Virus record (IMG/VR): IMGVR_UViG_3300017565_000005
Span: 1-63,678 of that record
Origin: a virus
Lineage: Duplodnaviria > Caudoviricetes
Length of the DNA: 63,678 nt
Reading direction: 5' to 3' (one strand)
Shown here: positions 1 through 60,800 of the stretch, piece by piece
How positions within the stretch are numbered: the stretch's first letter is position 1
Layout of the letters: the number at the start of each line of letters is the position of its first letter
The notes under the pieces: generated by a model
The model's database searches: none
What the model was told of the DNA's origin: nothing
Seen by the model: the letters and a program-made list of their open reading frames with translations, nothing else
Position numbers and translations under genes: made by a program

Positions 1-123
1 CAAGACGTACCGGCAAATGAAGAACCGGCGCGAACTGGCGACTTATTTGGACAGCCTGACCGGGATGGCGATGCAGTCGATCGGCACAGCGATGAGCGAA
101 GTGACGATGCGGGCAGCAGCGAG
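1..123. repeat. Terminal direct repeat (assembly overlap), identical to 63556-63678
   Basis: CAAGACGTACCGG...GCAGCAGCGAG is identical at both ends; the frame-1 ORF reads through the junction. Confidence 0.97.
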
Positions 124-373
124 GCGGCCGCCGTTCGACGACGAGCGCACGGTGGTGCAGCAGGTGAACATGGCGCGCAAGACGGCCGAGGAAGTGGCGC
201 TGTCGCAGGCGATCGAGGAACTGCCGCTGGAAGTGTCCGAGGACGAAGCCGAGCAAAACGAGCCGATGAGCCTGTACGACCTGACGGGGGATTACTGGCG
301 CGAGAAAATGCAGAACGAGACGGTCGGCCCGTCAACGCGCCGCGCAACTACCGGATCCAGCCGGGAGAACTGA
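1..373 (+). CDS. Nested +1-frame gene, TnpV-like (3' part; starts at ATG 63500; 142 aa in total)
   Basis: Frame 2 has genome-typical codons while frame 1 becomes A/T-rich at the wobble position; sequence PKTYRQM...LATYLD...VNMARKTAEEVAL resembles the TnpV pattern. Confidence 0.65.
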   Translation, partial: KTYRQMKNRRELATYLDSLTGMAMQSIGTAMSEVTMRAAARRPPFDDERTVVQQVNMARKTAEEVALSQAIEELPLEVSEDEAEQNEPMSLYDLTGDYWREKMQNETVGPSTRRATTGSSREN

Positions 374-3300
374 CCCGCGAAGGCTCGTGGAAAGTCACGG
401 CCGAGCGCAACGTATCCATCGTCGAACTGGTCAAGCGGCTCGAATCCGAGAACCGCATGGCGACCCCGGAGGAAAAAGCGCTGATGACGCGCTTTACCGG
501 CTGGGGCGCGTCTGAAATCGCCAACGGCGTATTCCCCGATCAGCATGGGCGCTTCAAGCCCGGCTGGGAAGCGCTTGGCGAACGACTGAAAGCGGCGCTC
601 ACCGAGGAAGAATACGCGAACGCACAGCGCAGCACGCAGTACGCGCACTACACCAGCGAGGGCGTCATCCGCTCGATCTTCGCCGGCCTGGAGCGCTTCG
701 GCTTCAAGGGTGGGCAGATCGTTGAGCCGGGCATGGGGGTGGGGCTATTCGCCGGCCTGATGCCCGATGCCATCGCCGCTCACTCAACCTATACCGGCAT
801 CGAGTTCGACAACATCACCGGCGCGATCGCCAAGCACCTGTATCCGCAAAGCAACATCATCGTGGGCGATTTCACGCGCACGAACCTGCCGACCAATTAT
901 TTCGACGCTGCGATCGGCAATCCGCCGTTCTCGTCCACGGTCATTTCCAACGACCCGGAGTACAAGCGCCATCGCTTCATGCTCCATGACTACTTCTTTG
1001 CCAAAACGATCGATCGTGTGCGCCCTGGCGGCGTCGTGGTGTTCGTCACCAGCAAGGGAACGATGGACAAGGCGAGCGACAAGGCGCGCAAGTACCTTGC
1101 CGACCGCGCGAACCTGATCGGTGCCGTGCGGCTGCCGCAGACCGCATTCAAGGACAACGCCGGCACCGAAGTCGTCACCGATGTCCTGTTCCTGCAAAAA
1201 AAGGGCGAGGGCGTCGAAGACAATGGCGTGTCCTGGCTGGGGCTGAAAGAGGTCAACACCAAGGGCGGGGAGCCCACCCAAGTCAACGAATACTTCGCCG
1301 CGCATCCGGAAATGGTGCTGGGCGAACACTCGATGACCGGATCGATGTACCGGGCCAACGAGTATACGGTCGAGCCGCGCGCCGGCGAAGACATCGAGCA
1401 GGCTTTCGCCAAGGCCGTGCAGTCGCTGCCCGAGGGCATCTACAACCCCGAGCGCGGCACTAAGGCCGACAAGGCCAAGGTTATCGAGCGCGACTTTAAT
1501 CCAACGAACCGCAAGGAAGGCGGGCTGTACCTGTCCGAGGACGGCACGCTCATGCAGGTCGAGAATGGATCTGGCGTTCCCGTCACCAAGCGAAAGAGCG
1601 CGGACGGCAAGAAAACGATCGACCTGAGTGCCAAACAGATAGGATGGCTCAAGGATTACGTGGGCCTGCGCGATGCGCTGAAACAAGCCCAATACGATCA
1701 GTTGAATGACGGCGATTGGCAGGCGTCGCTCAAAGCGCTGAACGATGTCTACGACAAGTTCGTGAAGAAGCACGGCCAGATCCTGTCGCATACCATCATC
1801 GAGCGCGAGAACAAGGACGGCACCACGTCCGTTACCCAGCGGTTCAAGAACCAGCAACTATGGGAAATGGACGCCGAGGGCGCTTTGGTGTTCGGGATTG
1901 AGAGGACCAAGCCTGACGGAACGGTCACGAAGGGGCCGGTATTCTCCGAGCGCGTCCTGAAGCGCCCCACCGAGCCGGAAATCAAGACGACACAAGACGC
2001 GCTGATGGTTTCGCTCAATCGCTTGGGCCGGCTCGACATCGATGACGTGGCGAAACTCGCCGGACTGCCGCGCGATGAGGCCATCGACGCGCTGGGCACG
2101 GCGATCTACGAGGATCCGAGCGTCGGCTGGCAGATGGCCGACGAATATCTGTCTGGCAACGTGGTGCGCAAGCTTGAACAGGCCCGTACCGCCGCCGACC
2201 TGAACAAGAAGTATGCGCGCAACATCGACGCGCTGCTGGCCGTGCAGCCCCGGCCGCTGGGGCCGACCGACATCACGGTACGCCTTGGCGCGAATTGGGT
2301 GCCGGCGAGCGACATCGCCGACTTCGCCCAAGAAATCATGAACGAGCGCATCGATGTCACCTATCAGCCGATCACGGGCGAATGGACGGCCGTGGGGCAT
2401 GGAAGCGTGGCGGGGTCCGAATGGGCGGCCGGCAACATGTCACCTTCGGCGGTTCTGGATGCCGTGCTGAACAGCCGCCAGTTGAAGGTCACGTATCGGG
2501 ATGCTGACGGGAAGCCGCATACGGATCCTGTAGCGACCGAGCAGGCCAACGATGTCGCTCGCAAAATGAAAGAGGCGTTCAGCCGCTGGGTCTGGACCAA
2601 TCCGGAGCGCTCCGACAGGCTGACGCGATACTACAACGAGAATTTCAACAACATCGCGCCGCGCCAGTATGACGGCTCGCACCTGACGCTGCCCGGCGTT
2701 TCCCTGCGCTTTACCCTGCATCCGCACCAGAAACGTGCGGTCTGGCGCGGCATCCAAGACGGCGATGTTTACCTTGCGCATGCGGTGGGCGCGGGCAAGA
2801 CGATCGAAATGATCGCTTCCGGAATGGAGCAGCGCCGGCTGGGCCTGATATCCAAGCCCATCTACACGGTGCCGAACCACATGCTGGCGCAGTTTTCGAA
2901 TGAATTCCTCGAACTGTACCCGACCGCCTATATCATGGTGGCCGACGAGCAGAATTTCCATACCAGCAATCGACGCCGGTTCATCGCACAGGCATCGTTG
3001 AATAACCCGGACGCGATTGTCATCACGCATTCGGCTTTCGGCAGGATCGGCATGAGCGACGAATTCGCTGATGCCTTTGTGCGGCGTCAGATTGATGAAT
3101 GGCAGACCGCTCTTAAAGACGCGAGCGACCAGATCACCAAGAAGCAGATCCAGCGCCGCATCGAGGAACTTGAGCGCAGGCTTGAGGGCAAGCAGTCCAA
3201 GGAAAAGAAGGATCAGGTTCTGACCTTCGAGGAATTGGGTGCGGACTACATTTTCGTGGACGAAATGCACGAGTTTCGCAAACTCGACTTCGCCACGAAC

Positions 3301-6300
3301 CAGGGCAACATCAAGGGCATCGACCCGAATGGTTCCCAGCGCGCGCTCGACCTGTTCATGAAGGTCGAATACCTGCGCGGCAAGCGGCCGGGGCGCTCGA
3401 TCACCGGCGCGTCCGGCACGCCGATCACCAACACCATGGGCGAGCTATTCACGGTGCAGCGTTTCTTCCAGCCCGAGCAGCTGGTGGAAGACGGCCTGGA
3501 TACGTTCGACGCTTGGGCCGCGCAGTACGGCGACACGGTGACGGGCCTGGAGCAGGACGCCGCCGGCGGATACGTGCCTGTGACGCGCTTTGCCAAGTTC
3601 CAGAACGTTCCCGAACTGATGCGCCGCGTGCGCTCGTTCATGGACATCGTGACCAACACCAAGCTGGGCGAACTGGTTACTCGGCCGAACGTGAAGGGCG
3701 GATCGCGTCAGATCGTCGTCACGCCCATGCCCGCCGGATATAAAGAGTATCAGGCCCAGCTGGCTGCGCGCATCACAGCTATCAAGAACCGTAGGGGTAA
3801 ACCCCAAAAGGGCGACGACATCATCCTGACCGTCATCAATGACGGGCGGTTTTCCTCGATCGATCTGCGCTTTGTCGATCCGGCCTTGTTGCCGGACCCG
3901 GACAGCAAACTTAACCGGATGATCGACGACATGATCGATGCGTACCGGGCGACGGCCAACAATCAGTACAAGAGCGAGAGCGATGGATCGACCGACCCGA
4001 ACAAGGGATCGACCATTCTGGTGTTTTCCGACATCGGCCTGGGCGAGCAGGCGGCCAAGCGTCGCGGTTTCTCGATGCGAGAATGGATTGAAAAGCGCCT
4101 GACCGACGCTGGAATTCCGCGCGAACACATTGCCTTCATGCGCGACTACAAGCAGCACGCCAAGAAGGGCCGGCTGTTTGCGGACATGCGCGAAGGCAAG
4201 AAGCGCCTGCTGATCGGCGGCAAGGACATGGAAACCGGCGTGAACGTGCAGAAGCGCCTCACGCATATTTTCCACCTTGACGCGCCGTGGTTCCCATCTT
4301 CGGTTGAGCAGCGCGAAGGGCGCGGCGTGCGCCAGGGCAACCAGAACGGCGAAGTCGATATACGGTCCTACGCCACGAAGGGCAGCTACGATTCGACCAT
4401 GTGGGGCATGAATGCCCGCAAGGCCCGCTTCATCGAGCAGGCGATGAGCGGTGATGACAACATCCGCAGCATGGAGGACGTGAGCGAGGCGAGCGCCTTC
4501 GAATTGGCGGCCGCGCTGGCGTCCGGCGACGAGCGTTATCTGAAGCTGGCCGGGCTGCGTGGCGACGTGGAGCGCCTAGGCCGGCTTCGCCAAGCGCATC
4601 ACGACGGCCAGAACCGGATGCAGCGCGATCGCCATTGGGCGGAAAGCGAAATCGATCGCAAGACCAAGCTGGTCAAGCAGTACAAGGATGCGATCGCCAA
4701 GCGCGTTCCGATCCAGGCCGGGGAGTTCGAGGGCAAGATCGGCGGGAAGTCGTTCGACTCGCGCGACGAATTCGGCGTGGCCTTGTTTGATGCCTTCAAG
4801 AAGCTGGTTTCCGAGCAGAGCGAAGCGACGAAGGTGATCGGCCATATCGGCGGGTTCAACATCCGGTTCGACGGCACGCGCGCCGGCAGCGACTTCTTTG
4901 CTGACGTGCATGTTGACGTGCCGGGCGGCGATCCGATCCTGACGTTCCCCATCGAGGATGGCATGTCCGTCAAGGGGCTGGCGACCAAGGCCGCCAATCA
5001 GGTCAACGCGCTCGATCGTCGCCTGACGATGGCCGAGCAGGACATCGAGGCATCCAAGCGTAAGATCGAACAGATCGACGCCCGGTTCGGCGCTCCGTTC
5101 GCGGAAGAAGCCGAATTGATGGACAAGATTGCGCAGCTGAACGACCTTGAGACGGAATTGGCCGCCGAAAGCAAGGAAGCGGAAAGCCAGCAAGCGCCCG
5201 AGCAGCCGAAAACCGAGCCGCCCGGCGATGTCGCCTACAGCGTGCTGCCCGTAACTGAAACGCCGGCATTCAAGAAGTGGTTCGGTGATAGCAAGGTGGT
5301 GGACGCCGAGGGCAAGCCGATGGTTGTATACCACGGCACCCACGGCGACTTTTCTGCGTTCAGGGCTAGTCAGCGCGACAACACTGGAACCGAAAACGAG
5401 GAATTCTTCTTTACTGAATCGTCGAGCGTTGCGAGCGGATACGCATTAATGTCCACGCTTGGCGCTGACATCCGAGCGCTGGAAAATCAACTTGATGCCG
5501 TTCATGATGAAATGGACGCGGTAGAAGCTGCGCGGGAAGCCTATTGGGAAAACAAGAATTGGACTGACGAGCAACACGACCCGTGGGAATATCCCAAAGA
5601 CGATCCGGGTTATGAACCTGAGCCGGATTGGTCGATTAAGCAGGAATCCCTTCGGAAGCGAGAAGCCCGTATCGAGCGACAGATCGAACGGCTGGAAGGC
5701 AAGCGCGATACCACGCGCGGACAGATTCAGGGTGGCGAGAGCGTCTACCCCGTGTATCTGAGCATGCAAAATCCGCTTGTGGTGGATGCTGGGGCTAAGG
5801 GTCGAGGAACGGCCGACGAAATAGCTATCGGCCTTCACTCTCACTTGGTTGAGCAAGCGAAGAAGGATGGACGTGATGGCGTGATCGTGAAGAACGTCCA
5901 CGACTCTCCGGTCGAGACTGATCCGCACACGGTCTACATTGTTTTCCGCCCCGAGCAGATCAAAAGCGCGACCGGCAACCGTGGCACGTTCGACTCGTCC
6001 AATCCTGACATCACATACAGCGTAAAAGCCGATGGCGAAGTTATCAGCGCATCGGCGCGCGGCACGCAGCTTCTGCAAGACCAGACGCCGATGAGCATTC
6101 GCAGCACGCCGGCGCTGCGTGATATGAAAGTGCCGGCCCTGCGAGACCTGATGTTTGCGGATCTGCGCGAGGCGAACGGGCTTTCGCACCCGGACGTAGG
6201 CGACATTTCGATCGGCCGGCGCGGCTGGTCCAAGAGTCGCGCCAATGCCTCGGACCCCGCAAAGCTTCTTATCATCCCGTCGCTTCCGGAAATTATCCGT

Positions 6301-9300
6301 TCCGGGGCTTATCTCGGATCGACCCCGGCGCAGGGCAAGTCGGCGGATATCGTCGGCTACCACTACATCGCTCGCCGCCTGAATGTGGACGGCGTGCCGG
6401 TCATTGCGCTGGTGACGATCGAGGAAAACAGCGCCGGCACACTCAGCTACTACAATCATACGGTCCTGAGCGACAATTTCGCCGCCAAGAGCGACGGCCC
6501 GGCCGATGGCCTGCTTGCCTCGTACCGCCGGCCGATGTTCGCGCCAGACGGGCGCATGACGCGCGGCCAGACCTTGACGGCGGCGCACGCAAGCGTGCGT
6601 GACGCTTTGCGGGCCGGCCCGCTCGGGGCGCTGATCGACAGGCTGATATCCGGCGGGCACATCGTTGTGCATCAAAGCCAGTTGACGCTTCCCGCGTCCA
6701 TGCGTGGCAAATCGGCCCTACAGGGCTTCACCGATAAAGGCATCGTGAACGTCGCGGCCGAAAACCTGACTCCGCAGACGGCCATGCCGGTCCTGCTGCA
6801 CGAGGCCATGCACGCCAAGGGCGAGCAGCTTGTCGGCACGAAGAAGTGGAACGCTTTGAACAAGCGCCTTGAACGCCTGTACAAGGCTGCGCAGGTGCGC
6901 AAGGCCGAGGGCCGCGTTCGCGACGGCGACTATTGGGACGGCGCGCTGCGCCGCGTCAACGCCGCCAAGGACCAGGGCGCGATCAGCCCGGCGCGCGAGG
7001 TCGAGGAATTCGGCACGTACGCGATCGAGAATTACGAACTTGCGCCGTCCGGCATCAAGAAGTGGGTCGACGACTTCATCGGCATGGTCAAGGACTGGCT
7101 GTATCGCCGCTTCGGCATCCAGGCGGGCGAGGTCACGCCGGCGCAGCTGCGCGCCATGGCTATCGCTGCGCTGCGTTCCATGGACGGCACGGCCCCGCAG
7201 TTTTCCAGGGCCATGGGCGGGATGGCGATGAACGACGGAGCGATGAGCGCCGAGGATCGGTATTTCGTCAACGAAGTCCTGTCCGAACTGGCCGCGAACG
7301 ACGAGTTTTTCCGTCATCCACGTTCGACCGGCTACACGCTCGATCGCGTGACCGATGATATGGGGACCGGCCTGACCTATATCGGGGCCGAGCCGATTCT
7401 TGAGAGCGACCAGAACGACTACAACGGGGCCGAGCGCCAGCACCGGCTGCGCACGGCGGCGGGCAACCCCGTGCGCGTGTTCGAGGACAAGAATAGGGTT
7501 TGGCTCGACGTGAGCCGGCTTGACCCTGGCGAGGGCGGGTCTGCCGTGTACGCGGCGATCGCCAATTATGCCTACAACACTGGCAAAACCTTCATCGGCG
7601 ACCCTGACGGGCTATCGGACGAAGCGCTGTACCGGCGCACCGAGGCCATGCTGAATTCGGCGCTGAAATTCGGCACCACGCGCCATCTTGAGCCGCATCC
7701 GTATCAACTTGAGGGCAATGCGGAGCTTGGCGTCGCGCCCCTGAAGTGGCAAAATGGGGAAGATGCCGAAAACGTTCGGTCGATGATCGACGTTGTAACC
7801 CAATTCGTAGACAGCCATGTCCCTGACGCACGCGATGCCACTTTCGACTTCCAGAGCCGAACCTTCCGAACTGGTGAAGGCGAGCCCGTCACTGATGGCG
7901 TGCTTAGAGGGTGGGTGGCCCCTGAAAAAGGTGGAACATTTGGCATTGGCGGCTCTAGTCTTAAAAGAAGCCTGCTGTACAAATCCCTTCTACGCAGCGC
8001 GAGCAGCGAAAGACCCGGATTACTGGAACGAGTTTTCCGTACACATGCCGAACTGGTTGCCGCAGGGGCACCCCTCAATCAGATCAGCTATAGCGTCTCT
8101 GAACGCGAAGAAGCCCTAGACGAGGCTTCTGCTGCCCTGGCCGCCGCCGACGAGCCGGTCGGGCCTGCGCTTACTGACAACTTGGGATCTGCGATCCGCG
8201 ATTTCTACGGCCTGCGCGGTCTGTGGCATCGCTTCATCACGCACCCCTACACGATCGCGGTGCTATTTCCCGAATTCACGCCCGTGTTCAACGCCTTCGA
8301 GGCGCAGAACCGGCAGCGCAACCTGATCATGGAGGATCTGTACCGGGATTTTGCCGACTATCAGGCGCTGTCTGGCGACGAGAAAGAGGGCGTCAACAAG
8401 GTGCTCGAATTGGGCCGGCTCACGTCGAACGTCTATTCGGACGCCGAATTGAAGGCCGGAATCGAAAATCCTGGCTATCGCAACGCCGTGCGCATCGATG
8501 AGGAAGGCAAGGCGCATCGCGTGCGCCAGGACATCAAGACCGGCCTGACGAAAGCTGGCGACAAGATCAACCTGAACCAGAAACAGATCCAGGCGTACAA
8601 GTCGGTGCGCAAGATGTTCGACCGCGCGCTGCAAATGTTCCGCGATCAGATGTTGCAAGAATTCGGCCTTGGCCGGTACGCCGGTCAGCCGAAAGCGGCC
8701 GAGGCCATGATGAAACAGGCCGCCGGCCTGCCCAAGACGAGCGGCGAGCGCGCGCGGCTGGAAGAAATGGCGCAGTTTGTGGCCGACATCGAACAGGCTT
8801 CGCGCACTGGCTACGTCCCGTTCACCCGGTATGGCGACTTCTTCATCGCGGTTAAGGAGAGGCAGGCTGACATCCAGTACAAGCGCGATGGCGACGATTA
8901 TCTCGCCACGGAAGTGCCGCAGGCGCTGGTCGAGTACTTGGATAGCATCGGTGCGAACTACGACAACGAGGCCGACGCATGGCGTCTGACCGAGGACCAG
9001 CGCAAGTCTCTGGAGAAAGAGAACGAAATCGCCATCTACAGCGAGAAAGTGGAAACCGGCATCAAGGACATCTTTGGCCGAAACTCCGTGCGCCGCGTGA
9101 AGAATGAGAAGCGCCCGGTCCACAACATCCCGTCCGTGAAAAAGGCGTTCAAGCGCATCACAGCCGAATACATCGACGGGCACCCCGGCCGGCGATTGGT
9201 GTCTGGCGAGGTCAGCAAGCAGCGCGTCGAAGGCGACATCGACATGCAGGGCCTGGATGCTCTGGCCGAACTTGCCTCGATCGAAAAGGAGGTATGGGGC

Positions 9301-11223
9301 GATATTCGCGAGCGGTTCGGCCAAGTCCTGCAGGCGAGGGGGTTTCGCCGGCACTTCATTCAATCGAGCAACGTGCCGGGGTATTCGACCGACTTCGAGC
9401 GCTCCATGGCCGAGTACATTGTCGGATCTGCCGGGTATCTTGCGCGCCGCCAGCATAGTGAGATGTGGGATAAAGCCGTCCAGGGGATCAAGGGCGAAAA
9501 GCTGAAAGCGTACGCGACGGATTACCGGCAGTACGTGAATGATCCGAGCGAGGAATATTCGCTCATCCGGCAGATCGGCTTTTTCAAATACATAAGCGGC
9601 AACCTTTCGTCCGCGTTCCTGAACGCGACACAGGTGCCGCTGCTGACGATGCCGTTCCTGACCCAAATCACAAGCTATCCGCAGGCATCCGCCCAGGTGG
9701 CGCGCGCCTACAAGGACGCGCTGAGCATCTTGCGCCCCGACCGTGTGGGCATGCACATGTTCGACCTTAAGAGTGCGCCGGCGGACGTACGTGAGGATTT
9801 GATCCGCGCCGGCCAGGAAGGTCTGTTGTTGCCGTTGCAAAGCCTCGAAGTGATGGGCATGGCGAACCGTCGCACGCCCGGCGGGCGGCGCTGGCAGAAA
9901 GGGTTTGATAGCACGGTGCAGTATGCCGGCATTCCGTTTACCGGCATCGAGCGGCTGAATCGCGTCGTGACGTTCATCGCGGCCGCACGGCTTTCCAAGC
10001 AGCCGCGCACGCGCGCCAAGATCGAGCAGGTGTTTCGGGCGAACCCCATGGCGCGGTCGAAACTGCACAATGAGGACGGCAGCTTCAGCACGTACGGTTT
10101 CAGCGAATTCGCTGTGGACGAGACGCAGCTGGTCATGGGCAAGGGCAACCGTCCCACGCTCATGCGCAGCATCGGCACGCCTATCTTCCAGTTCAAGAGC
10201 TTCACCTTCCAGGCGCTGGAGGCGATGTTCATGCGCTTCCCGATGCAGGGCAAGGAAGGCAGGAAAGCGAGGAATCTTGCGCTGATTACGATGATGGTCC
10301 TGTCCGGCTTTTGGGGCCTGCCCGGCATCGACGACCTGCGCGACATTCTTGAGAAATCGTACAAAGGACTCACCGGGAAGGATTTCGATACCCGAGACTG
10401 GGTGCGCCAGAAAATTTACGAAACGACCGATTCTTTGTGGCTGGCGCGGTTCTTTGATATGGGCCTGCCGGCGGCCGGCGTGACGGTGGGCGACACGCAT
10501 ATCGGTGTCGACATGAGCCGGCGTATCGGCATGGGCAACCTGCTGCCAGGATCCGAGTACGAAACGACCGGCATATCCGCCGTCGACAATTATCTGCTCG
10601 GATCGCTCGGGATCCCTGGCGATCTGATTTTTGGCACGACCATTCGCGCCGGACAGCAGTTTCTGCGCGGAGACGTAGGCGGCGCGGTCACGCAGTACAT
10701 GCCGAACTTCGTGGAGAACGCTCGACGTTCGTACGAATGGCACACGAAGGGCGTCCTGACGCGCGCGCAGCGCAAGATGCTCAATCCCGAGGACGTGGAA
10801 ACTTCCTCCATCATCCTGAAGTCGATCGGTTTTCAGCCCACGCAGATATCCGAACTGTATGCCGGCCAAGCGGCCGAGCGGCGCAGCCAGAACGCAATAT
10901 CGCAGCTACGTTCCAATCTGAAAGGCAATCTGGTGCGGGCGCTCGCGGCGGAAATGCGCAACAGCGACCCCGAGAAGGTGGCCGAACTCGGTCATGACGT
11001 GGACAAGGCGTTTCAGGCGATCATCGATCACAACGAGTCGATCACGCGCCCGGAAGACGAAATCAAGGTGACGAACTCGTCGATCCGGCAGATGATGCAG
11101 CGCGAGTTGGGTGGCGTGCCAGCAGCGTTCGGACGGGAGAAGAAGGCGGCTCGCGGAACGGCGCAGGCCCGTCGCCGTGCCTACGACTTGGAGCGCTATC
11201 TGGAGCCCAGGCCGGCCGATTAA
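1..11223 (+). CDS. Giant DarB-like polyvalent internal virion protein, C-terminal part (N6-adenine methyltransferase, SNF2 helicase, ART-like, LPD3-like, zincin, PLxRFG-like domains); continues from 57892
   Basis: Frame 1 is open from base 1. Motifs: EPGMGVG (~724), NPPF (~919), HAVGAGKT (~2779), DEMH (~3259), QREGRGVRQGN, YHGT...GRDG...VFRPEQIKS (~5257-6021), HEAMH (~6799), YVPFTRYG (~8812). Confidence 0.93.
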   Translation, partial: QDVPANEEPARTGDLFGQPDRDGDAVDRHSDERSDDAGSSEAAAVRRRAHGGAAGEHGAQDGRGSGAVAGDRGTAAGSVRGRSRAKRADEPVRPDGGLLARENAERDGRPVNAPRNYRIQPGELTREGSWKVTAERNVSIVELVKRLESENRMATPEEKALMTRFTGWGASEIANGVFPDQHGRFKPGWEALGERLKAALTEEEYANAQRSTQYAHYTSEGVIRSIFAGLERFGFKGGQIVEPGMGVGLFAGLMPDAIAAHSTYTGIEFDNITGAIAKHLYPQSNIIVGDFTRTNLPTNYFDAAIGNPPFSSTVISNDPEYKRHRFMLHDYFFAKTIDRVRPGGVVVFVTSKGTMDKASDKARKYLADRANLIGAVRLPQTAFKDNAGTEVVTDVLFLQKKGEGVEDNGVSWLGLKEVNTKGGEPTQVNEYFAAHPEMVLGEHSMTGSMYRANEYTVEPRAGEDIEQAFAKAVQSLPEGIYNPERGTKADKAKVIERDFNPTNRKEGGLYLSEDGTLMQVENGSGVPVTKRKSADGKKTIDLSAKQIGWLKDYVGLRDALKQAQYDQLNDGDWQASLKALNDVYDKFVKKHGQILSHTIIERENKDGTTSVTQRFKNQQLWEMDAEGALVFGIERTKPDGTVTKGPVFSERVLKRPTEPEIKTTQDALMVSLNRLGRLDIDDVAKLAGLPRDEAIDALGTAIYEDPSVGWQMADEYLSGNVVRKLEQARTAADLNKKYARNIDALLAVQPRPLGPTDITVRLGANWVPASDIADFAQEIMNERIDVTYQPITGEWTAVGHGSVAGSEWAAGNMSPSAVLDAVLNSRQLKVTYRDADGKPHTDPVATEQANDVARKMKEAFSRWVWTNPERSDRLTRYYNENFNNIAPRQYDGSHLTLPGVSLRFTLHPHQKRAVWRGIQDGDVYLAHAVGAGKTIEMIASGMEQRRLGLISKPIYTVPNHMLAQFSNEFLELYPTAYIMVADEQNFHTSNRRRFIAQASLNNPDAIVITHSAFGRIGMSDEFADAFVRRQIDEWQTALKDASDQITKKQIQRRIEELERRLEGKQSKEKKDQVLTFEELGADYIFVDEMHEFRKLDFATNQGNIKGIDPNGSQRALDLFMKVEYLRGKRPGRSITGASGTPITNTMGELFTVQRFFQPEQLVEDGLDTFDAWAAQYGDTVTGLEQDAAGGYVPVTRFAKFQNVPELMRRVRSFMDIVTNTKLGELVTRPNVKGGSRQIVVTPMPAGYKEYQAQLAARITAIKNRRGKPQKGDDIILTVINDGRFSSIDLRFVDPALLPDPDSKLNRMIDDMIDAYRATANNQYKSESDGSTDPNKGSTILVFSDIGLGEQAAKRRGFSMREWIEKRLTDAGIPREHIAFMRDYKQHAKKGRLFADMREGKKRLLIGGKDMETGVNVQKRLTHIFHLDAPWFPSSVEQREGRGVRQGNQNGEVDIRSYATKGSYDSTMWGMNARKARFIEQAMSGDDNIRSMEDVSEASAFELAAALASGDERYLKLAGLRGDVERLGRLRQAHHDGQNRMQRDRHWAESEIDRKTKLVKQYKDAIAKRVPIQAGEFEGKIGGKSFDSRDEFGVALFDAFKKLVSEQSEATKVIGHIGGFNIRFDGTRAGSDFFADVHVDVPGGDPILTFPIEDGMSVKGLATKAANQVNALDRRLTMAEQDIEASKRKIEQIDARFGAPFAEEAELMDKIAQLNDLETELAAESKEAESQQAPEQPKTEPPGDVAYSVLPVTETPAFKKWFGDSKVVDAEGKPMVVYHGTHGDFSAFRASQRDNTGTENEEFFFTESSSVASGYALMSTLGADIRALENQLDAVHDEMDAVEAAREAYWENKNWTDEQHDPWEYPKDDPGYEPEPDWSIKQESLRKREARIERQIERLEGKRDTTRGQIQGGESVYPVYLSMQNPLVVDAGAKGRGTADEIAIGLHSHLVEQAKKDGRDGVIVKNVHDSPVETDPHTVYIVFRPEQIKSATGNRGTFDSSNPDITYSVKADGEVISASARGTQLLQDQTPMSIRSTPALRDMKVPALRDLMFADLREANGLSHPDVGDISIGRRGWSKSRANASDPAKLLIIPSLPEIIRSGAYLGSTPAQGKSADIVGYHYIARRLNVDGVPVIALVTIEENSAGTLSYYNHTVLSDNFAAKSDGPADGLLASYRRPMFAPDGRMTRGQTLTAAHASVRDALRAGPLGALIDRLISGGHIVVHQSQLTLPASMRGKSALQGFTDKGIVNVAAENLTPQTAMPVLLHEAMHAKGEQLVGTKKWNALNKRLERLYKAAQVRKAEGRVRDGDYWDGALRRVNAAKDQGAISPAREVEEFGTYAIENYELAPSGIKKWVDDFIGMVKDWLYRRFGIQAGEVTPAQLRAMAIAALRSMDGTAPQFSRAMGGMAMNDGAMSAEDRYFVNEVLSELAANDEFFRHPRSTGYTLDRVTDDMGTGLTYIGAEPILESDQNDYNGAERQHRLRTAAGNPVRVFEDKNRVWLDVSRLDPGEGGSAVYAAIANYAYNTGKTFIGDPDGLSDEALYRRTEAMLNSALKFGTTRHLEPHPYQLEGNAELGVAPLKWQNGEDAENVRSMIDVVTQFVDSHVPDARDATFDFQSRTFRTGEGEPVTDGVLRGWVAPEKGGTFGIGGSSLKRSLLYKSLLRSASSERPGLLERVFRTHAELVAAGAPLNQISYSVSEREEALDEASAALAAADEPVGPALTDNLGSAIRDFYGLRGLWHRFITHPYTIAVLFPEFTPVFNAFEAQNRQRNLIMEDLYRDFADYQALSGDEKEGVNKVLELGRLTSNVYSDAELKAGIENPGYRNAVRIDEEGKAHRVRQDIKTGLTKAGDKINLNQKQIQAYKSVRKMFDRALQMFRDQMLQEFGLGRYAGQPKAAEAMMKQAAGLPKTSGERARLEEMAQFVADIEQASRTGYVPFTRYGDFFIAVKERQADIQYKRDGDDYLATEVPQALVEYLDSIGANYDNEADAWRLTEDQRKSLEKENEIAIYSEKVETGIKDIFGRNSVRRVKNEKRPVHNIPSVKKAFKRITAEYIDGHPGRRLVSGEVSKQRVEGDIDMQGLDALAELASIEKEVWGDIRERFGQVLQARGFRRHFIQSSNVPGYSTDFERSMAEYIVGSAGYLARRQHSEMWDKAVQGIKGEKLKAYATDYRQYVNDPSEEYSLIRQIGFFKYISGNLSSAFLNATQVPLLTMPFLTQITSYPQASAQVARAYKDALSILRPDRVGMHMFDLKSAPADVREDLIRAGQEGLLLPLQSLEVMGMANRRTPGGRRWQKGFDSTVQYAGIPFTGIERLNRVVTFIAAARLSKQPRTRAKIEQVFRANPMARSKLHNEDGSFSTYGFSEFAVDETQLVMGKGNRPTLMRSIGTPIFQFKSFTFQALEAMFMRFPMQGKEGRKARNLALITMMVLSGFWGLPGIDDLRDILEKSYKGLTGKDFDTRDWVRQKIYETTDSLWLARFFDMGLPAAGVTVGDTHIGVDMSRRIGMGNLLPGSEYETTGISAVDNYLLGSLGIPGDLIFGTTIRAGQQFLRGDVGGAVTQYMPNFVENARRSYEWHTKGVLTRAQRKMLNPEDVETSSIILKSIGFQPTQISELYAGQAAERRSQNAISQLRSNLKGNLVRALAAEMRNSDPEKVAELGHDVDKAFQAIIDHNESITRPEDEIKVTNSSIRQMMQRELGGVPAAFGREKKAARGTAQARRRAYDLERYLEPRPAD

Positions 11224-13096: not shown

Positions 13097-14443
13097 GTGG
13101 TCAGGCTGGCAAATCAGAACCGCTTTTTGTCCGAGCGCGGTGGCGTCTTTTACTACTGCCGGCGCGTGCCGGCGGCGGTCTCCGACACGGACGAGCGCGC
13201 GCCGTTCGTGCGCCAGTCGCTCAAGACCGACGACCTTGCCCGCGCCCGCGCCAAGCGCGACATCCTTGAGAAAGCCGACAACGAACTGTGGGCATCGATG
13301 CTCGCCGGCGAGGACAGCACCATGATCCGCGCCCGCTTCGAGGCGGCCCGCCTGCGCGCCGAAAGCCTCGGGTTCTCGTACCGGCCGGCCGAAGAACTCG
13401 CCCAGCAGGACATATCCGAAATCGTGGCGCGCGTTCTGGCGATCATGGACACGCGCACGCCGCGCCCGGTCGAGGCGGCGGTGCTGGGCGGGGCCGGCGA
13501 CTCGTCGGTGACGGTCAGCGCCGCGTTCGATGTCTACTGCGATGAAATCGTCGCGCAAAAGATATCGAAGAAAAGCCCGGCCCAGCGCAATCTGTGGAAG
13601 CGGATCAAGAGGCGGGCGATCGACTCGTTCATCGAAGTGGTCGAGGACAAGCCTCTGTCCGACATCGATCGGGACGACGCGCGCAAGTTCTACCTGCACT
13701 GGATGAAAAAGATATCGCCCAAGAGCGGCCCGAGGATATCGGCCTCGATGGGAAACCGTGCGATCGGTGACATGCGCGTCCTGTATTCGTCCTACTTCAC
13801 CTATATCGGCCAGGACGACCGCACGAACCCGTTTGCCAATCTCGGGTTTTCCGAGGACAAGAAGCGCAAGCGCCCGCCGTTCCCGAAAGGGTGGATCGAG
13901 GAAAAGATACTTGCCCCTGGCGCGCTGGCGGGGATGAACGAGCAGGAACGTGGCGTGGTGCTGGCGATGATCGAAACCGGCGCGCGCCCGAGCGAGTTGT
14001 GCAATCTGGTGCCGTCGCTCATCCGTCTTGATGCGGACGTTCCGCACATCACGATCGAGCCGCGCGACGATCCCGACGATCCGCGCGAAATCAAGACGCA
14101 TACATCGGTGCGCCGCATCCCGCTGGTGGGCATATCGCTTGAAGTGTTCAAGAAGCACCCGAACGGCTTCCCGCGCTACAAGGACCGGGAAGCGTCGCTG
14201 TCGACCGCGATCGGGAAATACATGCGCGTGAACAAGCTTTTCCCGACGCCCAAGCACAAGACCTATTCGATCCGGCACACCTTCGAGGACCGGATGAAAG
14301 AGGGCAACATCGATACGGAGTTGCGCAAGATCCTGATGGGTCATTCCATCGATCGGCCGGAATACGGCTCGGGCGGGGCCTTGGAATGGCGGCGCGAGCA
14401 GCTTTTGAAAATCGCGCTGCCGTTTGACCCGTCTATCGTTTGA
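13097..14443 (+). CDS. int: Tyrosine integrase with DUF6538-like N-terminal arm-binding domain
   Basis: YYCRRVP N-terminus; TGARPSE, IKT, YSIRHTF, LMGH and a catalytic Tyr (PEYG). Confidence 0.93.
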   Translation: MVRLANQNRFLSERGGVFYYCRRVPAAVSDTDERAPFVRQSLKTDDLARARAKRDILEKADNELWASMLAGEDSTMIRARFEAARLRAESLGFSYRPAEELAQQDISEIVARVLAIMDTRTPRPVEAAVLGGAGDSSVTVSAAFDVYCDEIVAQKISKKSPAQRNLWKRIKRRAIDSFIEVVEDKPLSDIDRDDARKFYLHWMKKISPKSGPRISASMGNRAIGDMRVLYSSYFTYIGQDDRTNPFANLGFSEDKKRKRPPFPKGWIEEKILAPGALAGMNEQERGVVLAMIETGARPSELCNLVPSLIRLDADVPHITIEPRDDPDDPREIKTHTSVRRIPLVGISLEVFKKHPNGFPRYKDREASLSTAIGKYMRVNKLFPTPKHKTYSIRHTFEDRMKEGNIDTELRKILMGHSIDRPEYGSGGALEWRREQLLKIALPFDPSIV

Positions 14444-28796: not shown

Positions 28797-28878
28797 TACA
28801 TTTCCTTGAAAATTGGTATGTGAAATTGCCCGCTGGGCGCGGCGGGCGGCACGTGAAGCGAAATAAGATCGAAAAAAA

Positions 28879-57891: not shown

Positions 57892-60800
57892 GTGGCAGAC
57901 AACAACACGTTCGGCCTGAACCCACTTGATCGTGCGATTGCCGACACTGAATCGAGCTTCGAGCCGATCGGCATCGATTTCCAGCGCCAGAACACGCCGG
58001 CCCCTGAGATTGATGCGCGCCAGGCTGACCCGCAGCCCAAGCCGGCACGGGTAAGCGGCAGGGCCGCAGGTGGTCTTGCGCCCCCGAACGCGCTCATGCC
58101 GTTGTTTGAAGGGGCCGCTCGAAAATACGATGTTCCGGTCAACGTCATCATGGCGCTGGCGCAGCAGGAATCGAACTACAACTCCCAAGCCATGGGCTCG
58201 CAGACCAAGTGGGGCCGGGCCATGGGCATGATGCAGTACCTGAATTCCACGGCCAAGGGCCTTGGCATCAACCCGTTCGTGCCCGAGCAGGCGATCGACG
58301 CGGCCGCGATGCAGATCCGCCAGCGCCTGGACAAGGGATACTCGATCGAGGACGCGGTAAAGGAACACTTCGCCGGCCCGGATCGCCGGCTGTGGGGACC
58401 GAAGACCCGCCAGTACGGCATCGACGTGATGAGGAAGGCGCGCGCGCTGTCGGGGCTGTACGGCAGCGGCGCGGACAGTTCGTTCCTCACGCAGGGTCCA
58501 ATGTCCACGGTGCAGGATGGCCCGATGTCTGTGCCTGCCGGCACGGATACGCGCGACTTGAACCTGACCATGCCGAACGTGCAGGACGACCAGGACGCGC
58601 GCGTCGCGGCGCAGATGGCCGAACTGGATCGCCAGGACGGCAAGAATTACATACTGCGCACCAACCCCGGCATGATCGAGCCGGGCAATCTGGACCTGAA
58701 TAACCGTCCTGTCGTCAAGAACGATGATGGATCGATCAGCACGGTACGCTCCATGTCGATCAACATGGACGGCAAGGAATACCTGATTCCGACCATCGGC
58801 CTTGATGGCAAGGTGCTGAACGATGATGAGGCGGTCGAGAATTTCAAGAAGACTGGCCAGCATCTTGGTGTATTCGAGAACGCCGAGAGCGCGACGAAGT
58901 ACGCCGAGAAGCTACATGAGCAGCAGGCCAAGCAGTACGGGCGTCCCGGCGTACTGACGCAGGCGGCCAACGATGCGCTGCGCGGTTTCAGCAACCTGAA
59001 AAATATCGGTGTCGGGCTGGCGGCGCTGGGTGCCGATCTTGTGGGCGCGGACAAGACCGCCGACAGGCTGCTGCAAACCTACATGGACAACGCGGCCGAC
59101 ATCGCCAAGAACAACCCGGCGGTCATCGGCACGTACAAGAACATAAAGTCGCTTGGCGATGCCGGGCGCTATGCGATCGAGGCGGTGGCCGAGAACTTGC
59201 CGATGATGGTTCCGTCGCTTTTGACGGGCGGCATCGGCGCGGCGCTGGCGAAAAAAACGGCCGAGCGCGCCGTCACGCAGTTCATAGAAGGTCAGGTTTC
59301 CAAGGGCGTTGCGCGCGAACTGGCCGAGAAGCAGGCGGCGAAACTTGCCGCGCGGCGCATTCTTGTCGCCAGCGGTGGCGGTGCGGCGCTGTCTTCGATC
59401 GGGATCGAGTCGGGCAACATCTACGGCGACACGTTCCGCGAAACGGGCAAGAAAGCGCCTGGTTTGTCGGTGGCGTTTGGTGTGCCGGCCGGCGTTCTCG
59501 ACGCGATCGAGCCCGTGTATGCGCTCTCGAAGATTGCCGGCCCCGCCGTCAAGCAGCTGGCCGGCGGCATCATCAAGCGCATGGGCAAGGAAGCCGGCAA
59601 GCAGTTCCTGATCGAGGCGGGAACCGAGGGCTTGCAGTCGATGCTGGAGGCCGCACCCAAGTCGATCACCACGGGCAAGCCGTACTGGACCGAGGAATTG
59701 CTCGATGATGTCATCGACTCGGTACTCAAAGGCGGCTTGGCTGGCGGTACGTTCGGCGCTGCGACCGCGCCGTTTCATGGTAGCGGATCTGGCGAAGCGC
59801 CCGCTGCGCCGCCAGCCGGGCCTGCCGTCGAGCCGCCCGCCGCGCCAGCGCCGGGTACGGAGCAGGTTTCGACCGCTCCCAATGGTGACACGGTACGCTG
59901 GACGGAGCCGTCCGAGCCCGACACGCGCGGCCCGCTCACGCGCGCCATGGAGGTTGGCGAGAACGTCGCCGCCAGCAAGCGCGTCGTCGTCACCACGCCG
60001 GCCGGGCAGATAACCGGATTTCTGGAATCGCTCAACGAGGACGGCCAGGGCGGATTCGTCGCTCGCGTGCTGGGCTATGATGGTCAGTATCACCAGTTCA
60101 CGCACAACGATCCGGTCAAGATCCAGACCGAAGCAGCCGCGATGGCAGAACGCCGTGCGCAGATTGAAAGTCAGGAGGTTGTTGATCCTGAAACCGGCGA
60201 AATTCTTACGCAGGAGCCCGCACATGCAGCAGATGATGATGGACGTGAATCAGGCGCTGAGGCTGTTGCGACAGGTGAAGGCGGTGTCGCCGGCGCAGTC
60301 GAAGATGCTGCTGCGCTGCCTGAGAGCGGGCCGGCCGATACCGCCAAGGCTAAACGGCCTGTGCGAAAAGCTGTACCTGCTACAGATCAAGCCTCCGACC
60401 GACAGCCGGCACTAGAAGAACCCGTTGCCGTCGAGGATATGACGGCCGAGCAGTTGGCCGAGCGCCGTGAATACTTGTCGGAGCAGGCCAAGTTAAACGG
60501 CGGATGGAATAAAGCGCTGATACGCGAGCGCACAAAGGTAGAGTCCGCCCAGCGCAAGCTGACACAATCAGAGTCAGCTGGGAACAGGCCCGGAGACGAT
60601 GCAGGGAATGGGTTTAAGGTTGGGCCACAAGATGGGGAGCGCTATCGAGTAAGCATTGTGCCCGGTCTTGGCAGTGCGGTGGCACTGGAAAAGCGGCTAC
60701 CTGCTGGAACGGCGGCAACCTTCTATGTCGGCAAAGATGGCAACCTGATTGATGGTGATGACGTAGATGTTTCCAAAGAAAGCAGTAGATCCAGGGTTTG

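What the first reader, a model, noticed from the sequence alone, without database searches (positions are those of the whole stretch)
1..373. TnpV-like gene hidden in the +1 frame of the giant DarB-like gene, across the assembly junction
Seen: a 142-aa ORF (ATG 63500 with a GAGG SD, stop at 373) lies entirely within the giant ORF, just ahead of the methyltransferase domain. Over this stretch frame 1 loses G/C wobble (CGA, GGA, GAT, GCA) and reads as a low-complexity linker, while frame 2 uses typical codons. Knowledge (from memory): FKDRAPKTYRQM..RELATYLD...VQQVNMARKTAEEVAL resembles the TnpV family pattern. Inference: an overprinted partner (chaperone, inhibitor or regulator) of the methylase-helicase module, or the tail of a frameshifted isoform. 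Gene callers would miss it.
Basis: partly seen in the sequence, partly recalled or inferred. Interest (0 to 1): 0.8.

Follow-up and report, generated by a model that had tools for sequence, protein, structure and literature searches.

The report
Hidden gene inside giant phage gene
A small, conserved TnpV-like gene sits in a shifted reading frame inside the linker of a giant injected-protein gene of this phage and of dozens of related phages, and has gone unannotated in the phage records examined.

Summary
The window is a complete Bcep22-like podophage genome with a 123-bp terminal repeat. Joined at that repeat it carries one 5,628-aa polyvalent DarB-like gene. A 142-aa ORF lies in its +1 frame (ATG 63500, GAGG 9 nt upstream, stop 371-373), inside the linker before the methylase domain.

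This is a real gene, not a chance ORF:
- It is the only stretch of the 16.9-kb gene where another frame out-scores the giant frame in codon usage.
- A +1 ORF with a start codon and a Shine-Dalgarno-like motif lies upstream of the methylase domain in all 11 GenBank phages, 31 IMG/VR loci and 8 more distant phages examined.
- dN/dS is lower in the +1 frame than in the giant frame in 38 of 38 pairs.
- Giant-frame third positions are unusually invariant there.
- Free-standing copies survive where the giant frame is broken.

The window's protein scores below Pfam's TnpV cut-off (15.8 vs 27 bits). A 64%-identical relative passes, so it is a distant, N-terminally shortened TnpV-like protein: a four-helix core with an acidic tail.

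Independent internal initiation is the best-supported way it is expressed. Its function is unknown. Binding to the methylase module has only weak co-fold support. No annotation or paper I could search describes it.

The parts
63500..63678 (+). 5' part of the nested +1 ORF (ATG 63500). Bases 63556-63678 are the terminal repeat and duplicate 1-123.
1..373 (+). 3' part of the nested +1 ORF (reading frame 2 of the window), stop TGA 371-373. The whole ORF is 142 aa across the junction.
63487..63490 (+). Shine-Dalgarno-like GAGG, 9 nt before the ATG
   Evidence: Equivalent motifs lie upstream of the homologous start in 12 of 12 genomes, 29 of 31 IMG/VR loci and 8 of 8 distant phages.
63500..63555 (+). 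Start of the confidently folded helical core (residues 1-19 of about 91). The core continues at 1-217.
   Evidence: helices 3-17, 19-27, 31-59, 67-91; block pLDDT mostly 81-93, with a dip to 69 in the 61-70 loop
260..310 (+). Conserved acidic-tail motif EPMSLYDLTGDYWREKM (residues 106-122) of the window's subfamily. Residues after about 122 run into the methylase coding region and vary or are absent in relatives.
   Evidence: The giant frame regains its normal GC3 from about 319.
57892..63678 (+). 5' part of the giant polyvalent DarB-like gene (frame 1), with an SLT lytic transglycosylase domain near the N-terminus
1..11223 (+). 3' part of the giant gene. The linker runs to about 340 and the methylase domain starts at 343 (NYRIQPGEL). 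Then come Eco57I-type methylase, ResIII/Helicase_C, ART-PolyVal, LPD3 and LPD37. Total 5,628 aa.
1..123 (.). Terminal direct repeat of the assembly (identical to 63556-63678); the junction the ORF crosses

Best explanation
The 142-aa ORF is a real protein-coding gene, wholly nested in the +1 frame of the linker that precedes the methylase domain of a 5,628-aa virion-type polyvalent (DarB-like) protein gene. It is translated on its own from ATG 63500 by ribosomes recruited at an internal Shine-Dalgarno site on the giant gene's mRNA, so it is made whenever the giant gene is expressed. Its product is a small acidic protein (pI about 5). It has a four-helix core of about 90 residues and a disordered acidic tail, and is a distant, N-terminally shortened relative of the TnpV family (PF14198). 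Selection acts on the small gene. Over these roughly 430 nt the giant frame is only kept open and encodes an unconstrained, low-complexity linker. Inferred, not shown: the arrangement arose when the giant ORF came to read through an older tnpV-like gene. Function is inferred only. My best guess (about 0.35) is a trans-acting partner, an assembly or holding factor or a regulatory subunit, that binds the methylase module of the giant protein. An autonomous role against a host or defence target is nearly as likely (about 0.3). The confidence below is for the gene being real, independently initiated and TnpV-like, not for the function.
For: Composition: this is the only place in the 16.9-kb gene where another frame wins the codon-usage scan, and the GC3 switch is clear.

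Conservation:
- A tblastn search with the JC1 copy finds 23 phage records. In 11 of 11 inspected the match is +1 to the annotated giant CDS.
- 12 of 12 genomes have ATG at the homologous site with GAGG, AAGGAGG or AGGAGG upstream.
- In 31 of 31 IMG/VR loci found through the methylase domain (49-77% identity), the methylase frame is open to the 5' end of the locus and a +1 ORF ends at the start of the methylase domain. 27 of 31 hit the family profile at E<=1e-3.
- 29 of 31 carry an SD core of 4 nt or more and 23 of 31 one of 5 nt or more, against 14.8% and 2.5% of 2,339 background ATGs. There are 19 distinct start contexts.
- 8 of 8 more distant phages (Y7, VvAW1, Atu_ph08, PEp14, POI1126, LASTA, PBC5, Itty13) have a +1 ORF of 98-109 aa with ATG and an SD-like core upstream of the methylase domain.

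Selection:
- NG86 omega is lower in the +1 frame than in the giant frame in 25 of 25 pairs (+1: 0.10-0.61; giant: 0.62-8.7).
- The same holds in 13 of 13 further pairs, with giant-frame omega above 1 in 11 of 13.
- Variable giant-frame third positions: 18/107 inside against 153/370 in flanks (p=2e-6) in Lessieviruses, and 9/107 against 164/383 (p=1.6e-12) in Ralstonia phages. No gapped columns fall inside the ORF.

Free-standing copies: in metagenome locus L014 the giant frame has two stops within the intact small ORF. L013 and L015 carry it among small genes.

Family:
- 9 representatives and 32 clusters, all 85-186 aa.
- PF14198 is hit by 24 of 34 members, best 3e-7, against 8 of 34 for the next family.
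- P0031 scores 29.0 bits and P0035 28.6 bits, both above the 27-bit cut-off. The nested ORF of L048 scores 28.3 bits.
- The nearest Atlas clusters are three named TnpV and one hypothetical protein, at 0.89-0.90.
- It is the only TnpV-like six-frame match in the whole window genome.

Fold: pLDDT 75 overall, with block pLDDT mostly 81-93 over residues 1-91 and a dip to 69 in the 61-70 loop.

Partner reading: the co-fold with the methylase region (window 343-2400) gave the verdict 'weak support'. The score was 0.56 (runs 0.56, 0.53, 0.57) and the best of 3 controls 0.01. The mark was reached by 58 of 80 solved complexes and 2 of 110 mismatched pairs. At 0.60 or under it was reached by only 7 of those 80 and by both mismatches that passed. 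The runs agree in at least 29% of contacts and the partner's pLDDT is at least 65. These counts hold only roughly because my own alignments were used.
Against: - No direct evidence of translation: no Ribo-seq or peptide data could be examined.
- The window's own protein is below Pfam's TnpV cut-off (15.8 bits, E 0.014). Only profile positions 34-110 of 111 are matched in any family member.
- Bcep22 and Gerry give no direct PF14198 match at E<=1.
- The two nested-protein types are linked only at hhalign probability 84.6%, E 6.8e-6, over 42 columns.
- Pairs in the dN/dS tests share ancestry, and the alignments were guided by the +1 protein.
- Given the small ORF's codons, the giant frame stays open by chance in 4-60% of shuffles (window 13%). 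Openness of both frames in one genome is therefore not by itself remarkable.
- No fold match in PDB or BFVD at E<=0.001.
- Against the partner reading: the co-fold pass is of the class that is more often wrong than right. Free-standing copies sit next to SIR2, cpYpsA and P4-type primase genes with no intact methylase-helicase gene in the DNA seen.
- Three still more distant methylase-bearing elements do not show a recognisable homologue.
Confidence: 0.85

Rival explanations
1. Frameshifted isoform: ribosomes translating the N-terminal 1,870 aa of the giant protein shift +1 just before 63500. They make a truncated protein that ends in the TnpV-like domain. The ORF is then a C-terminal tail, not a separate gene.
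For: The +1 frame is open for 21-190 codons upstream of the ATG in the genomes examined. In Sinorhizobium phage PBC5 the annotated orf33 runs in frame from the conserved upstream domain into the TnpV-like segment and stops there, and the methylase is a separate orf23. A fused form therefore exists, or that record has an indel.
Against: The homology always begins at an ATG preceded by an SD-like motif: 12 of 12, 29 of 31 and 8 of 8. The upstream +1 stretch is not conserved in length or sequence. Free-standing homologues start at the same methionine. I saw no slippery site by eye in 63437-63500, but I ran no formal search. All database relatives are small proteins of 85-186 aa. The 'longer' length class was not searched with the search for homologous proteins, but the all-length search found none.
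Confidence: 0.07
2. Fossil: a once independent tnpV-like gene was swallowed by a gene fusion and is no longer expressed or useful. Its codon bias and ORF are decaying relics.
For: Normal codon usage in the +1 frame and a junk-like linker in the giant frame are what a recent capture would leave.
Against: The ORF, its ATG and its SD are intact in every one of the 51 loci with a recognisable copy, across methylase divergence down to about 40% identity. +1-frame omega is below giant-frame omega in 38 of 38 pairs. Copies stay intact where the giant frame has decayed.
Confidence: 0.04
3. Chance ORF in GC-rich DNA, with conservation imposed by the giant frame or by RNA or DNA features rather than by a +1 protein.
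For: Nine other +1 open stretches of 102-157 codons occur in the same gene. Both frames align between clades because they share the nucleotides.
Against: The coding signal is unique to this stretch. Variation peaks at +1 third positions and is lowest at giant-frame third positions. The +1 ORF persists in loci at 47-54% GC: Y7, VvAW1, L038 and L048. There is profile-level similarity to an established protein family. The predicted fold is confident.
Confidence: 0.02
4. Xis-like recombination directionality factor, the role postulated for TnpV of Tn4451, acting with the phage's integrase.
For: Passages of PMC3158075 report that TnpV was postulated to act in excision because of similarity to lambda Xis. 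Some phages of this group are temperate (passages of PMC9144972).
Against: The window genome has no Resolvase-domain recombinase, and only a sub-threshold tyrosine-integrase-like match (19 bits against a cut-off of 27.1). The protein is acidic, pI 4.4-5.5 in the 10 members computed, unlike typical small DNA-bending proteins (that comparison is from my own knowledge). It is embedded in a virion-module gene. This rival concerns function only and is compatible with the gene being real.
Confidence: 0.08

Closest known systems
TnpV of Tn4451/Tn4453-type transposons (Pfam PF14198)
   Same: A small protein of about 100-140 aa on mobile elements. There is in-register profile similarity over positions 34-110 of 111. 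Close relatives of the window protein pass the curated cut-off. The nearest language-model clusters include three named TnpV.
   Different: The window protein itself is sub-threshold (15.8 bits). The N-terminal third of the profile is not matched. It is not next to a serine recombinase. It is embedded in another gene rather than free-standing. TnpV has no demonstrated function (passages only).
Embedded Rz1-in-Rz spanin genes of phage lysis cassettes
   Same: A whole gene lies inside a larger same-strand phage gene, with its own start and ribosome-binding site. That Rz1 reads in the +1 frame of Rz is recalled, not from a call. The Lessieviruses themselves carry such an embedded Rz1 (passage of PMC9144972).
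   Different: Here the host gene is a virion protein of about 4,000-5,600 aa, and the overlap falls in an unconstrained linker. The small gene belongs to an older, widespread family, so the large gene's frame looks like the newcomer. There is no functional link to lysis.
Phage P1 DarB and its accessory proteins (DarA, Hdf, DdrA, DdrB, Ulx)
   Same: The host gene shares the methylase-helicase core with DarB (26% identity over the methylase part). P1 needs additional proteins for its Dar antirestriction system (passage of PMC9144972), which is the model for a small partner.
   Different: P1 DarB starts at the methylase domain and has no upstream linker. No TnpV-like ORF exists anywhere in P1 at E<=1. 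Ulx is unrelated to the nested protein (hhalign probability 0.2%).
Polyvalent proteins of phages and conjugative elements (Iyer, Burroughs, Anand, de Souza, Aravind 2017, PMC5512222)
   Same: The host gene has the defining multi-domain make-up: SLT, methylase, helicase, ART-PolyVal, LPD3, LPD37.
   Different: The main text of that paper has no occurrence of 'TnpV', 'overlapping' or 'frameshift'. A gene hidden in a linker is not part of the described theme. Its supplements could not be seen.

Membership tests
Pfam TnpV (PF14198) | Whole-protein score at or above the curated gathering cut-off (27 bits) | tested here: not met
   The window protein scores 15.8 bits, E 0.014. Relatives P0031 (64% identical) at 29.0, P0035 at 28.6 and the nested ORF of L048 at 28.3 bits do pass. 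24 of 34 family members hit at E<=0.1.
Pfam TnpV (PF14198) | Match over the full length of the 111-position profile | tested here: not met
   All type-A matches cover profile positions about 34-110 only. Type-B nested proteins cover 22-83.
Pfam TnpV (PF14198) | Genomic association with a large serine recombinase (TnpX type), as in Tn4451 and Tn6104 | tested here: not met
   No Resolvase-domain match in the window genome at E<=0.01. The association itself is taken from passages of PMC3158075.
Pfam TnpV (PF14198) | Small protein carried on a mobile genetic element | tested here: met
   142 aa, in a phage genome. Relatives are 85-186 aa.
Same-strand embedded (nested) phage gene | Entire ORF contained in a larger gene in another frame, with both frames open in relatives | tested here: met
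   +1 frame in 11 of 11, 31 of 31 and 8 of 8 loci. The giant or methylase frame is open across it in all but PBC5, where the giant gene is split.
Same-strand embedded (nested) phage gene | Own start codon and ribosome-binding site | tested here: met
Same-strand embedded (nested) phage gene | Purifying selection on the embedded frame | tested here: met
Same-strand embedded (nested) phage gene | Product shown to be made | not testable with these tools
   No ribosome-profiling or peptide data at hand. The JC1 virion proteomics were reported for annotated proteins only (passages of PMC9144972), and supplements are closed.
Programmed ribosomal frameshift product | Conserved shift site and conserved upstream continuation in the new frame | tested here: inconclusive
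   The upstream +1 stretch varies from 21 to 190 codons and is not conserved. No slippery motif was seen by eye, and no formal scan was run. PBC5 shows an in-frame fusion.
P1 Dar accessory protein Ulx | Sequence or profile similarity to Ulx | tested here: not met
   hhalign probability 0.2%, 16 columns
Polyvalent protein (host gene) | Several conflict-related domains, including LPD and ART-PolyVal, in one polypeptide | tested here: met

The most novel reading that the evidence does not exclude
The TnpV-like protein is a dedicated trans-acting subunit or holding chaperone of the methylase-helicase module of injected polyvalent proteins. The giant genes of these podophages were created when two ORFs fused by reading through an ancestral free-standing tnpV gene in its -1 frame, which locked the partner inside the gene it serves. 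If so, this would give the first function for the whole TnpV family, including the copies on Tn4451-type transposons. It would also be an example of a large protein's linker being born by overprinting an older gene.
Probability: 0.25. Interest if true: 0.75.

Novelty: new member of a known kind. Interest (0 to 1): 0.6.

Why it matters
- The Bcep22-like Burkholderia phages and their Ralstonia, Klebsiella, Erwinia and Pseudomonas relatives are studied as therapy or biocontrol candidates. Their largest gene takes up about a fifth of the genome.
- Every one of the 19 GenBank/RefSeq records inspected lacks a separate annotation for this gene, which evolution has kept intact in all of them.
- It is a clean case of more than 100 codons of conserved dual coding in dsDNA phages, with selection clearly assigned to one frame. 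That makes it useful as a benchmark for detectors of overlapping genes.
- It places a member of the uncharacterised TnpV family in a fixed position next to a methylase-helicase module. This gives a concrete, testable handle on what TnpV proteins do.
- Engineering or knock-out work on the giant gene would unknowingly hit two genes.

Tried and rejected
- Fold searches of the AF2 model against PDB and BFVD gave nothing at E<=0.001. The pdb_via_wide library was not on the machine.
- A profile search of solved structures gave only two weak Tir-fragment hits (E 0.031 and 0.079), which I disregard.
- P1 Ulx as homologue: rejected.
- tblastn of the 142-aa protein against plasmids found no match at E<=1.
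- Pattern scans for relatives found nothing in viral contigs with A2 or in genome contigs with A2 and with P0025. The context of the two NCBI-annotated bacterial copies (Pollutimonas sp. M17, Castellaniella ginsengisoli) could therefore not be seen.
- Cross-clade BLASTP of the two frames does not discriminate, because both frames align.
- Shuffling giant-frame codons to test +1 openness is circular, since the codon set is already shaped by the constraint. It gave values from 0.001 to 1.0, and I draw nothing from it.
- The founding Bcep22/BcepIL02 paper (PMC3187461) is not held, so I cannot say whether it mentions the ORF.
- Serine-recombinase link: rejected for this genome.
- Three more distant methylase-bearing elements were checked. 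The Streptococcus phi-SsuZKB4_rum record has no +1 ORF. The fecal contig MT835575 has a 209-codon +1 open stretch with no similarity. A Helicobacter ganmani prophage has a striking +1 ORF but no detectable similarity.
Full report
**1.

The first 123 bases of the window are identical to its last 123. The sequence is therefore one circularly closed unit of 63,555 bp, 60.5% GC. IMG/VR lists the record as having direct terminal repeats. Joined at that repeat, frame 1 is open from 57874 to 11220, giving a 5,628-aa protein from GTG 57892. Frame 2 is open for 163 codons, with ATG at 63500, GAGG nine bases upstream and TGA at 371-373. That is a 142-aa ORF entirely inside the giant one.

The compositional claim is also right. 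The giant gene has GC1/2/3 of 0.64/0.44/0.75. Between about 63420 and 310 its third position drops to 0.32-0.54, while its first position, which is the third position of the +1 frame, rises to 0.74-0.88.

I scanned the whole giant gene with a codon-usage log-likelihood trained on other genes of the same genome. The only nine windows where another frame beats the giant frame by more than 0.3 nat per codon are contiguous. They start at 63502 to 247, and all favour +1.

ORF length alone means little here. Nine other +1 open stretches of 102-157 codons lie in the same gene. One of them, 62243-62704, shows no such signal.

**2. Context**

The genome encodes a P22-like portal, a tail-spike chaperone domain and a lysozyme-domain protein. 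Its relatives are the Bcep22-like Lessieviruses of Burkholderia and several genera of Ralstonia phages.

The giant gene carries these domains: SLT lytic transglycosylase, Eco57I-type methylase, ResIII/Helicase_C, ART-PolyVal, LPD3 and LPD37. That is the make-up of a polyvalent protein as described in PMC5512222 (abstract and searched passages). In the relatives the gene is annotated 'DarB-like antirestriction protein'. The JC1 homologue was found in purified virions (passages of PMC9144972).

The nested ORF occupies giant residues 1870-2012, a low-complexity, hydrophobic-poor linker. The methylase domain begins at window base 343.

**3. The +1 ORF is a conserved gene**

*Close relatives.* A tblastn search with the window ORF found only phage JC1 (35.5% identity, E 9e-3). 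With the JC1 copy as query, 23 records from 15 named phages matched.
- In 11 of 11 records inspected, the match is +1 to the annotated giant CDS and no separate CDS is annotated.
- In all 12 genomes, counting the window, the homologous region starts at an ATG preceded by GAGG, AAGGAGG or AGGAGG. The ORF is 107-142 aa.

*IMG/VR loci.* Searching IMG/VR with the first 300 residues of the methylase domain gave 31 loci at 49-77% identity.
- In 31 of 31 the methylase frame is open to the 5' end of the locus.
- In 31 of 31 a +1 ORF ends within a few tens of bases of the start of the methylase domain.
- 27 of 31 hit a profile of the small-protein family at E<=1e-3.
There are 19 distinct start contexts.
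- At the inferred starts, 29 of 31 have an SD core of 4 nt or more and 23 of 31 one of 5 nt or more. Among 2,339 other ATGs in the same loci the rates are 14.8% and 2.5%.

*More distant phages.* The methylase query matched 117 phage records. I sampled eight more distant ones: Pseudoalteromonas Y7, Vibrio VvAW1, Agrobacterium Atu_ph08, Erwinia PEp14, Ochrobactrum POI1126, Klebsiella LASTA, Sinorhizobium PBC5 and Pseudomonas Itty13.
- All eight have a +1 ORF of 98-109 aa upstream of the methylase domain, with ATG and an SD-like core 8-11 nt upstream.
- Seven of them form a second sequence type, starting MNLNNW.
- That type is linked to the window's type by hhalign at probability 84.6%, E 6.8e-6, over 42 columns.

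**4. Selection is on the small frame**
- Among six Lessieviruses and five Ralstonia phages, Nei-Gojobori omega is lower in the +1 frame than in the giant frame over the same nucleotides in 25 of 25 pairs. The +1 range is 0.10-0.61 and the giant range 0.62-8.7.
- In 13 further pairs from other clades the same holds in 13 of 13. Giant-frame omega exceeds 1 in 11 of 13.
- Pairs share ancestry, and the second set was aligned on the +1 protein, so these are not independent trials.
- Variable sites peak at the +1 third position inside the ORF, but at the giant third position in the flanks.
Giant-frame third positions vary at 18/107 sites inside against 153/370 in the flanks (p=2e-6) in Lessieviruses. 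In Ralstonia phages the figures are 9/107 against 164/383 (p=1.6e-12).
- No alignment gaps fall inside the ORF, while 92 and 50 gapped columns fall in the flanks.

Given the small ORF's own codons, the giant frame stays open by chance in 4-60% of shuffles, and in 13% for the window. Reading through the small gene is therefore cheap, which fits the unconstrained linker.

**5. Free-standing copies**

A metagenome scan found five loci at 59-73% identity.
- In L014 the frame corresponding to the giant gene has two stops inside the intact small ORF.
- In L015 the small gene follows a SIR2-family gene and faces a DUF927 primase-type gene.
- In L014 a DUF3987 gene is nearby.
- In L013 it follows a cpYpsA (SLOG) gene.
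- Only fragments matching giant residues of about 1866-2074 remain around it.

The small gene is thus kept where the giant gene is gone, at least within the 1.5-6.4 kb seen. Two bacterial genome copies are annotated by NCBI as hypothetical proteins. I could not retrieve their context.

**6. Family and fold**

All database relatives are small. There are 9 representatives of 85-142 aa in an all-length search, and 32 clusters of 98-186 aa.

Evidence for a TnpV relationship:
- The window protein hits Pfam TnpV at E 0.014 and 15.8 bits, below the 27-bit cut-off. The match is in register, residues 15-89 to profile positions 35-110 of 111.
- Across the family, 24 of 34 members hit TnpV at E<=0.1 (best 3e-7). 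The next most frequent family is hit by 8 of 34.
- P0031 (64% identical) and P0035 pass the cut-off at 29.0 and 28.6 bits.
- Among ten divergent nested ORFs, five have TnpV as top hit, and one (L048) scores 28.3 bits.
- Four of the eight distant-phage ORFs hit TnpV at E 4e-4 to 0.023.
- The nearest language-model clusters are three named TnpV and one hypothetical protein, at 0.89-0.90.
- The ORF is the only TnpV-like six-frame match in the window genome. The same is true in PEp14. LASTA has one further, weaker match (12.3 bits, E 0.0067) lying in the giant frame.

I therefore call it a distant, N-terminally shortened TnpV-like protein, not a certified member.

AlphaFold2 with nine sequences gives helices 3-17, 19-27, 31-59 and 67-91. 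Block pLDDT over them is mostly 81-93, with a dip to 69 in the 61-70 loop, and the tail is disordered. Neither PDB nor BFVD gives a match at E<=0.001. The ten family members I computed are acidic, pI 4.4-5.5.

The window's subfamily has a conserved tail motif, EPMSLYDLTGDYWREKM. The last 20 or so residues run into the methylase coding region, where the giant frame regains its codon bias. They vary or are missing in relatives.

**7. How it is expressed**

The conserved ATG and SD, and the fact that homology starts exactly at that methionine in nested and free-standing copies alike, point to independent internal initiation on the giant gene's mRNA. The lack of conservation of the upstream +1 stretch points the same way. 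This is inferred from sequence, and no translation data were available.

A +1 frameshift isoform cannot be excluded as an additional product. In PBC5 the annotated orf33 runs in frame into the TnpV-like segment, and the methylase is a separate gene. That could be a true split or an indel in an old record.

**8. What it does**

Unknown. TnpV itself has only a postulated Xis-like role (passages of PMC3158075). That role fits poorly here, for three reasons:
- the genome has no serine recombinase and only a sub-threshold tyrosine-integrase-like match;
- the protein is acidic;
- the gene sits in a virion-module gene.

P1's accessory protein Ulx is unrelated, and P1 has no TnpV-like ORF.

A co-fold of the small protein with the methylase region (window 343-2400) returned 'weak support':
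- score 0.56 (runs 0.56, 0.53, 0.57), best of 3 controls 0.01;
- the mark was reached by 58 of 80 solved complexes and 2 of 110 mismatched pairs;
- at 0.60 or under it was reached by only 7 of those 80 and by both mismatches that passed;
- the runs agree in at least 29% of contacts, and the partner's pLDDT is at least 65;
- these counts hold only roughly, because my own alignments were used.

The fixed position just before the methylase domain favours a partner role. The free-standing copies next to unrelated conflict genes favour an autonomous one. I put the partner reading at about 0.35, an autonomous anti-defence or regulatory role at about 0.3, and a DNA-level Xis-like role at about 0.1.

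**9. Evolutionary reading (inference)**

The small frame has the normal codon usage, the purifying selection and membership of an old, widespread family. The giant frame here is an unconstrained linker. The linker is therefore most simply the younger reading. On this view the giant ORF came to run through a pre-existing tnpV-like gene in its -1 frame, joining an upstream module to the methylase-helicase module.

Beyond the sampled range the picture fades:
- A Streptococcus element has no +1 ORF.
- A fecal contig has an open +1 stretch with no similarity.
- A Helicobacter ganmani prophage (38% GC) has a 143-codon +1 ORF with an AAGGAG SD at the same place. The next longest alternative-frame stretch there is 46 codons. 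It has no detectable similarity to the family or to TnpV.

**10. Novelty and limits**

None of the 19 GenBank/RefSeq records inspected annotates the ORF as a gene of its own. In 17 the giant CDS is the only CDS annotated there, PBC5 has the ORF as the end of orf33, and Itty13 is annotated on the opposite strand.

I found no mention of a nested gene in any of the following:
- passages of the JC1 paper;
- the Ralstonia phage paper, PMC7940629, with zero occurrences of the search words;
- the polyvalent-protein paper;
- five full-text searches.

The founding Bcep22 paper is not held, and supplements are closed. 'Not in print' is therefore limited to what these searches cover.

Embedded same-strand genes are a known kind in phages, Rz1 in Rz for example, and TnpV is a known family. 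This is a new, widely conserved member of both, in an unexpected place.

Noticed in passing
L057 (Sinorhizobium phage PBC5, AF448724.1) 2-943 and 1603-3849: The giant gene is annotated as two genes. orf33 runs in frame from the conserved upstream domain into the TnpV-like segment and stops there. The methylase-helicase is a separate orf23, with about 650 nt unannotated between them. This is either a true split architecture or an indel in an old record.
   Followed up: partly
L058 (Pseudomonas phage Itty13, MW460249.1) 1-3885: The two annotated CDSs over this stretch lie on the strand opposite to the open, methylase-homologous frame. This is probably a wrong-strand call in 68% GC DNA.
   Followed up: no
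L064 (Helicobacter ganmani prophage, BK070120.1) 2031-2432: A 134-aa +1 ORF (143 codons open) with an AAGGAG SD lies just upstream of the methylase domain of a giant gene at 38% GC. The next longest alternative-frame open stretch in the locus is 46 codons. It has no detectable similarity to TnpV or to the family profiles, so it may be a very divergent or an independent nested gene.
   Followed up: partly
L013 212-1174; L014 2869-3429; L015 1737-2982: Free-standing copies of the small gene in metagenome contigs sit after a cpYpsA (SLOG) gene, near a DUF3987 gene, and after a SIR2 gene opposite a DUF927 gene. Only short remnants of the giant gene lie around them.
   Followed up: partly
window 62243-62704 (+): Another long +1 ORF (153 aa) lies inside the giant gene. 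It shows no codon-usage signal in the scan and served as an internal negative control.
   Followed up: yes
window 260-310 (+): The acidic-tail motif EPMSLYDLTGDYWREKM is nearly invariant in the window's subfamily, including free-standing copies. It looks like a short linear binding motif, but no partner is known.
   Followed up: partly
window 13097-14443 (+): This is the only recombinase-like signal in the genome: a sub-threshold tyrosine-integrase match (19 bits, cut-off 27.1) at 13943-14347. No serine recombinase is present, unlike JC1.
   Followed up: partly
window 27297-28979 (-): A 560-aa protein has an AAA ATPase domain and weak similarity to novel STAND NTPase families.
   Followed up: no
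window 5302-5991 (+), inside the giant gene: An ART-PolyVal (ADP-ribosyltransferase of polyvalent proteins) domain is followed by LPD3 and a full-length LPD37 domain (261 bits).
   Followed up: no
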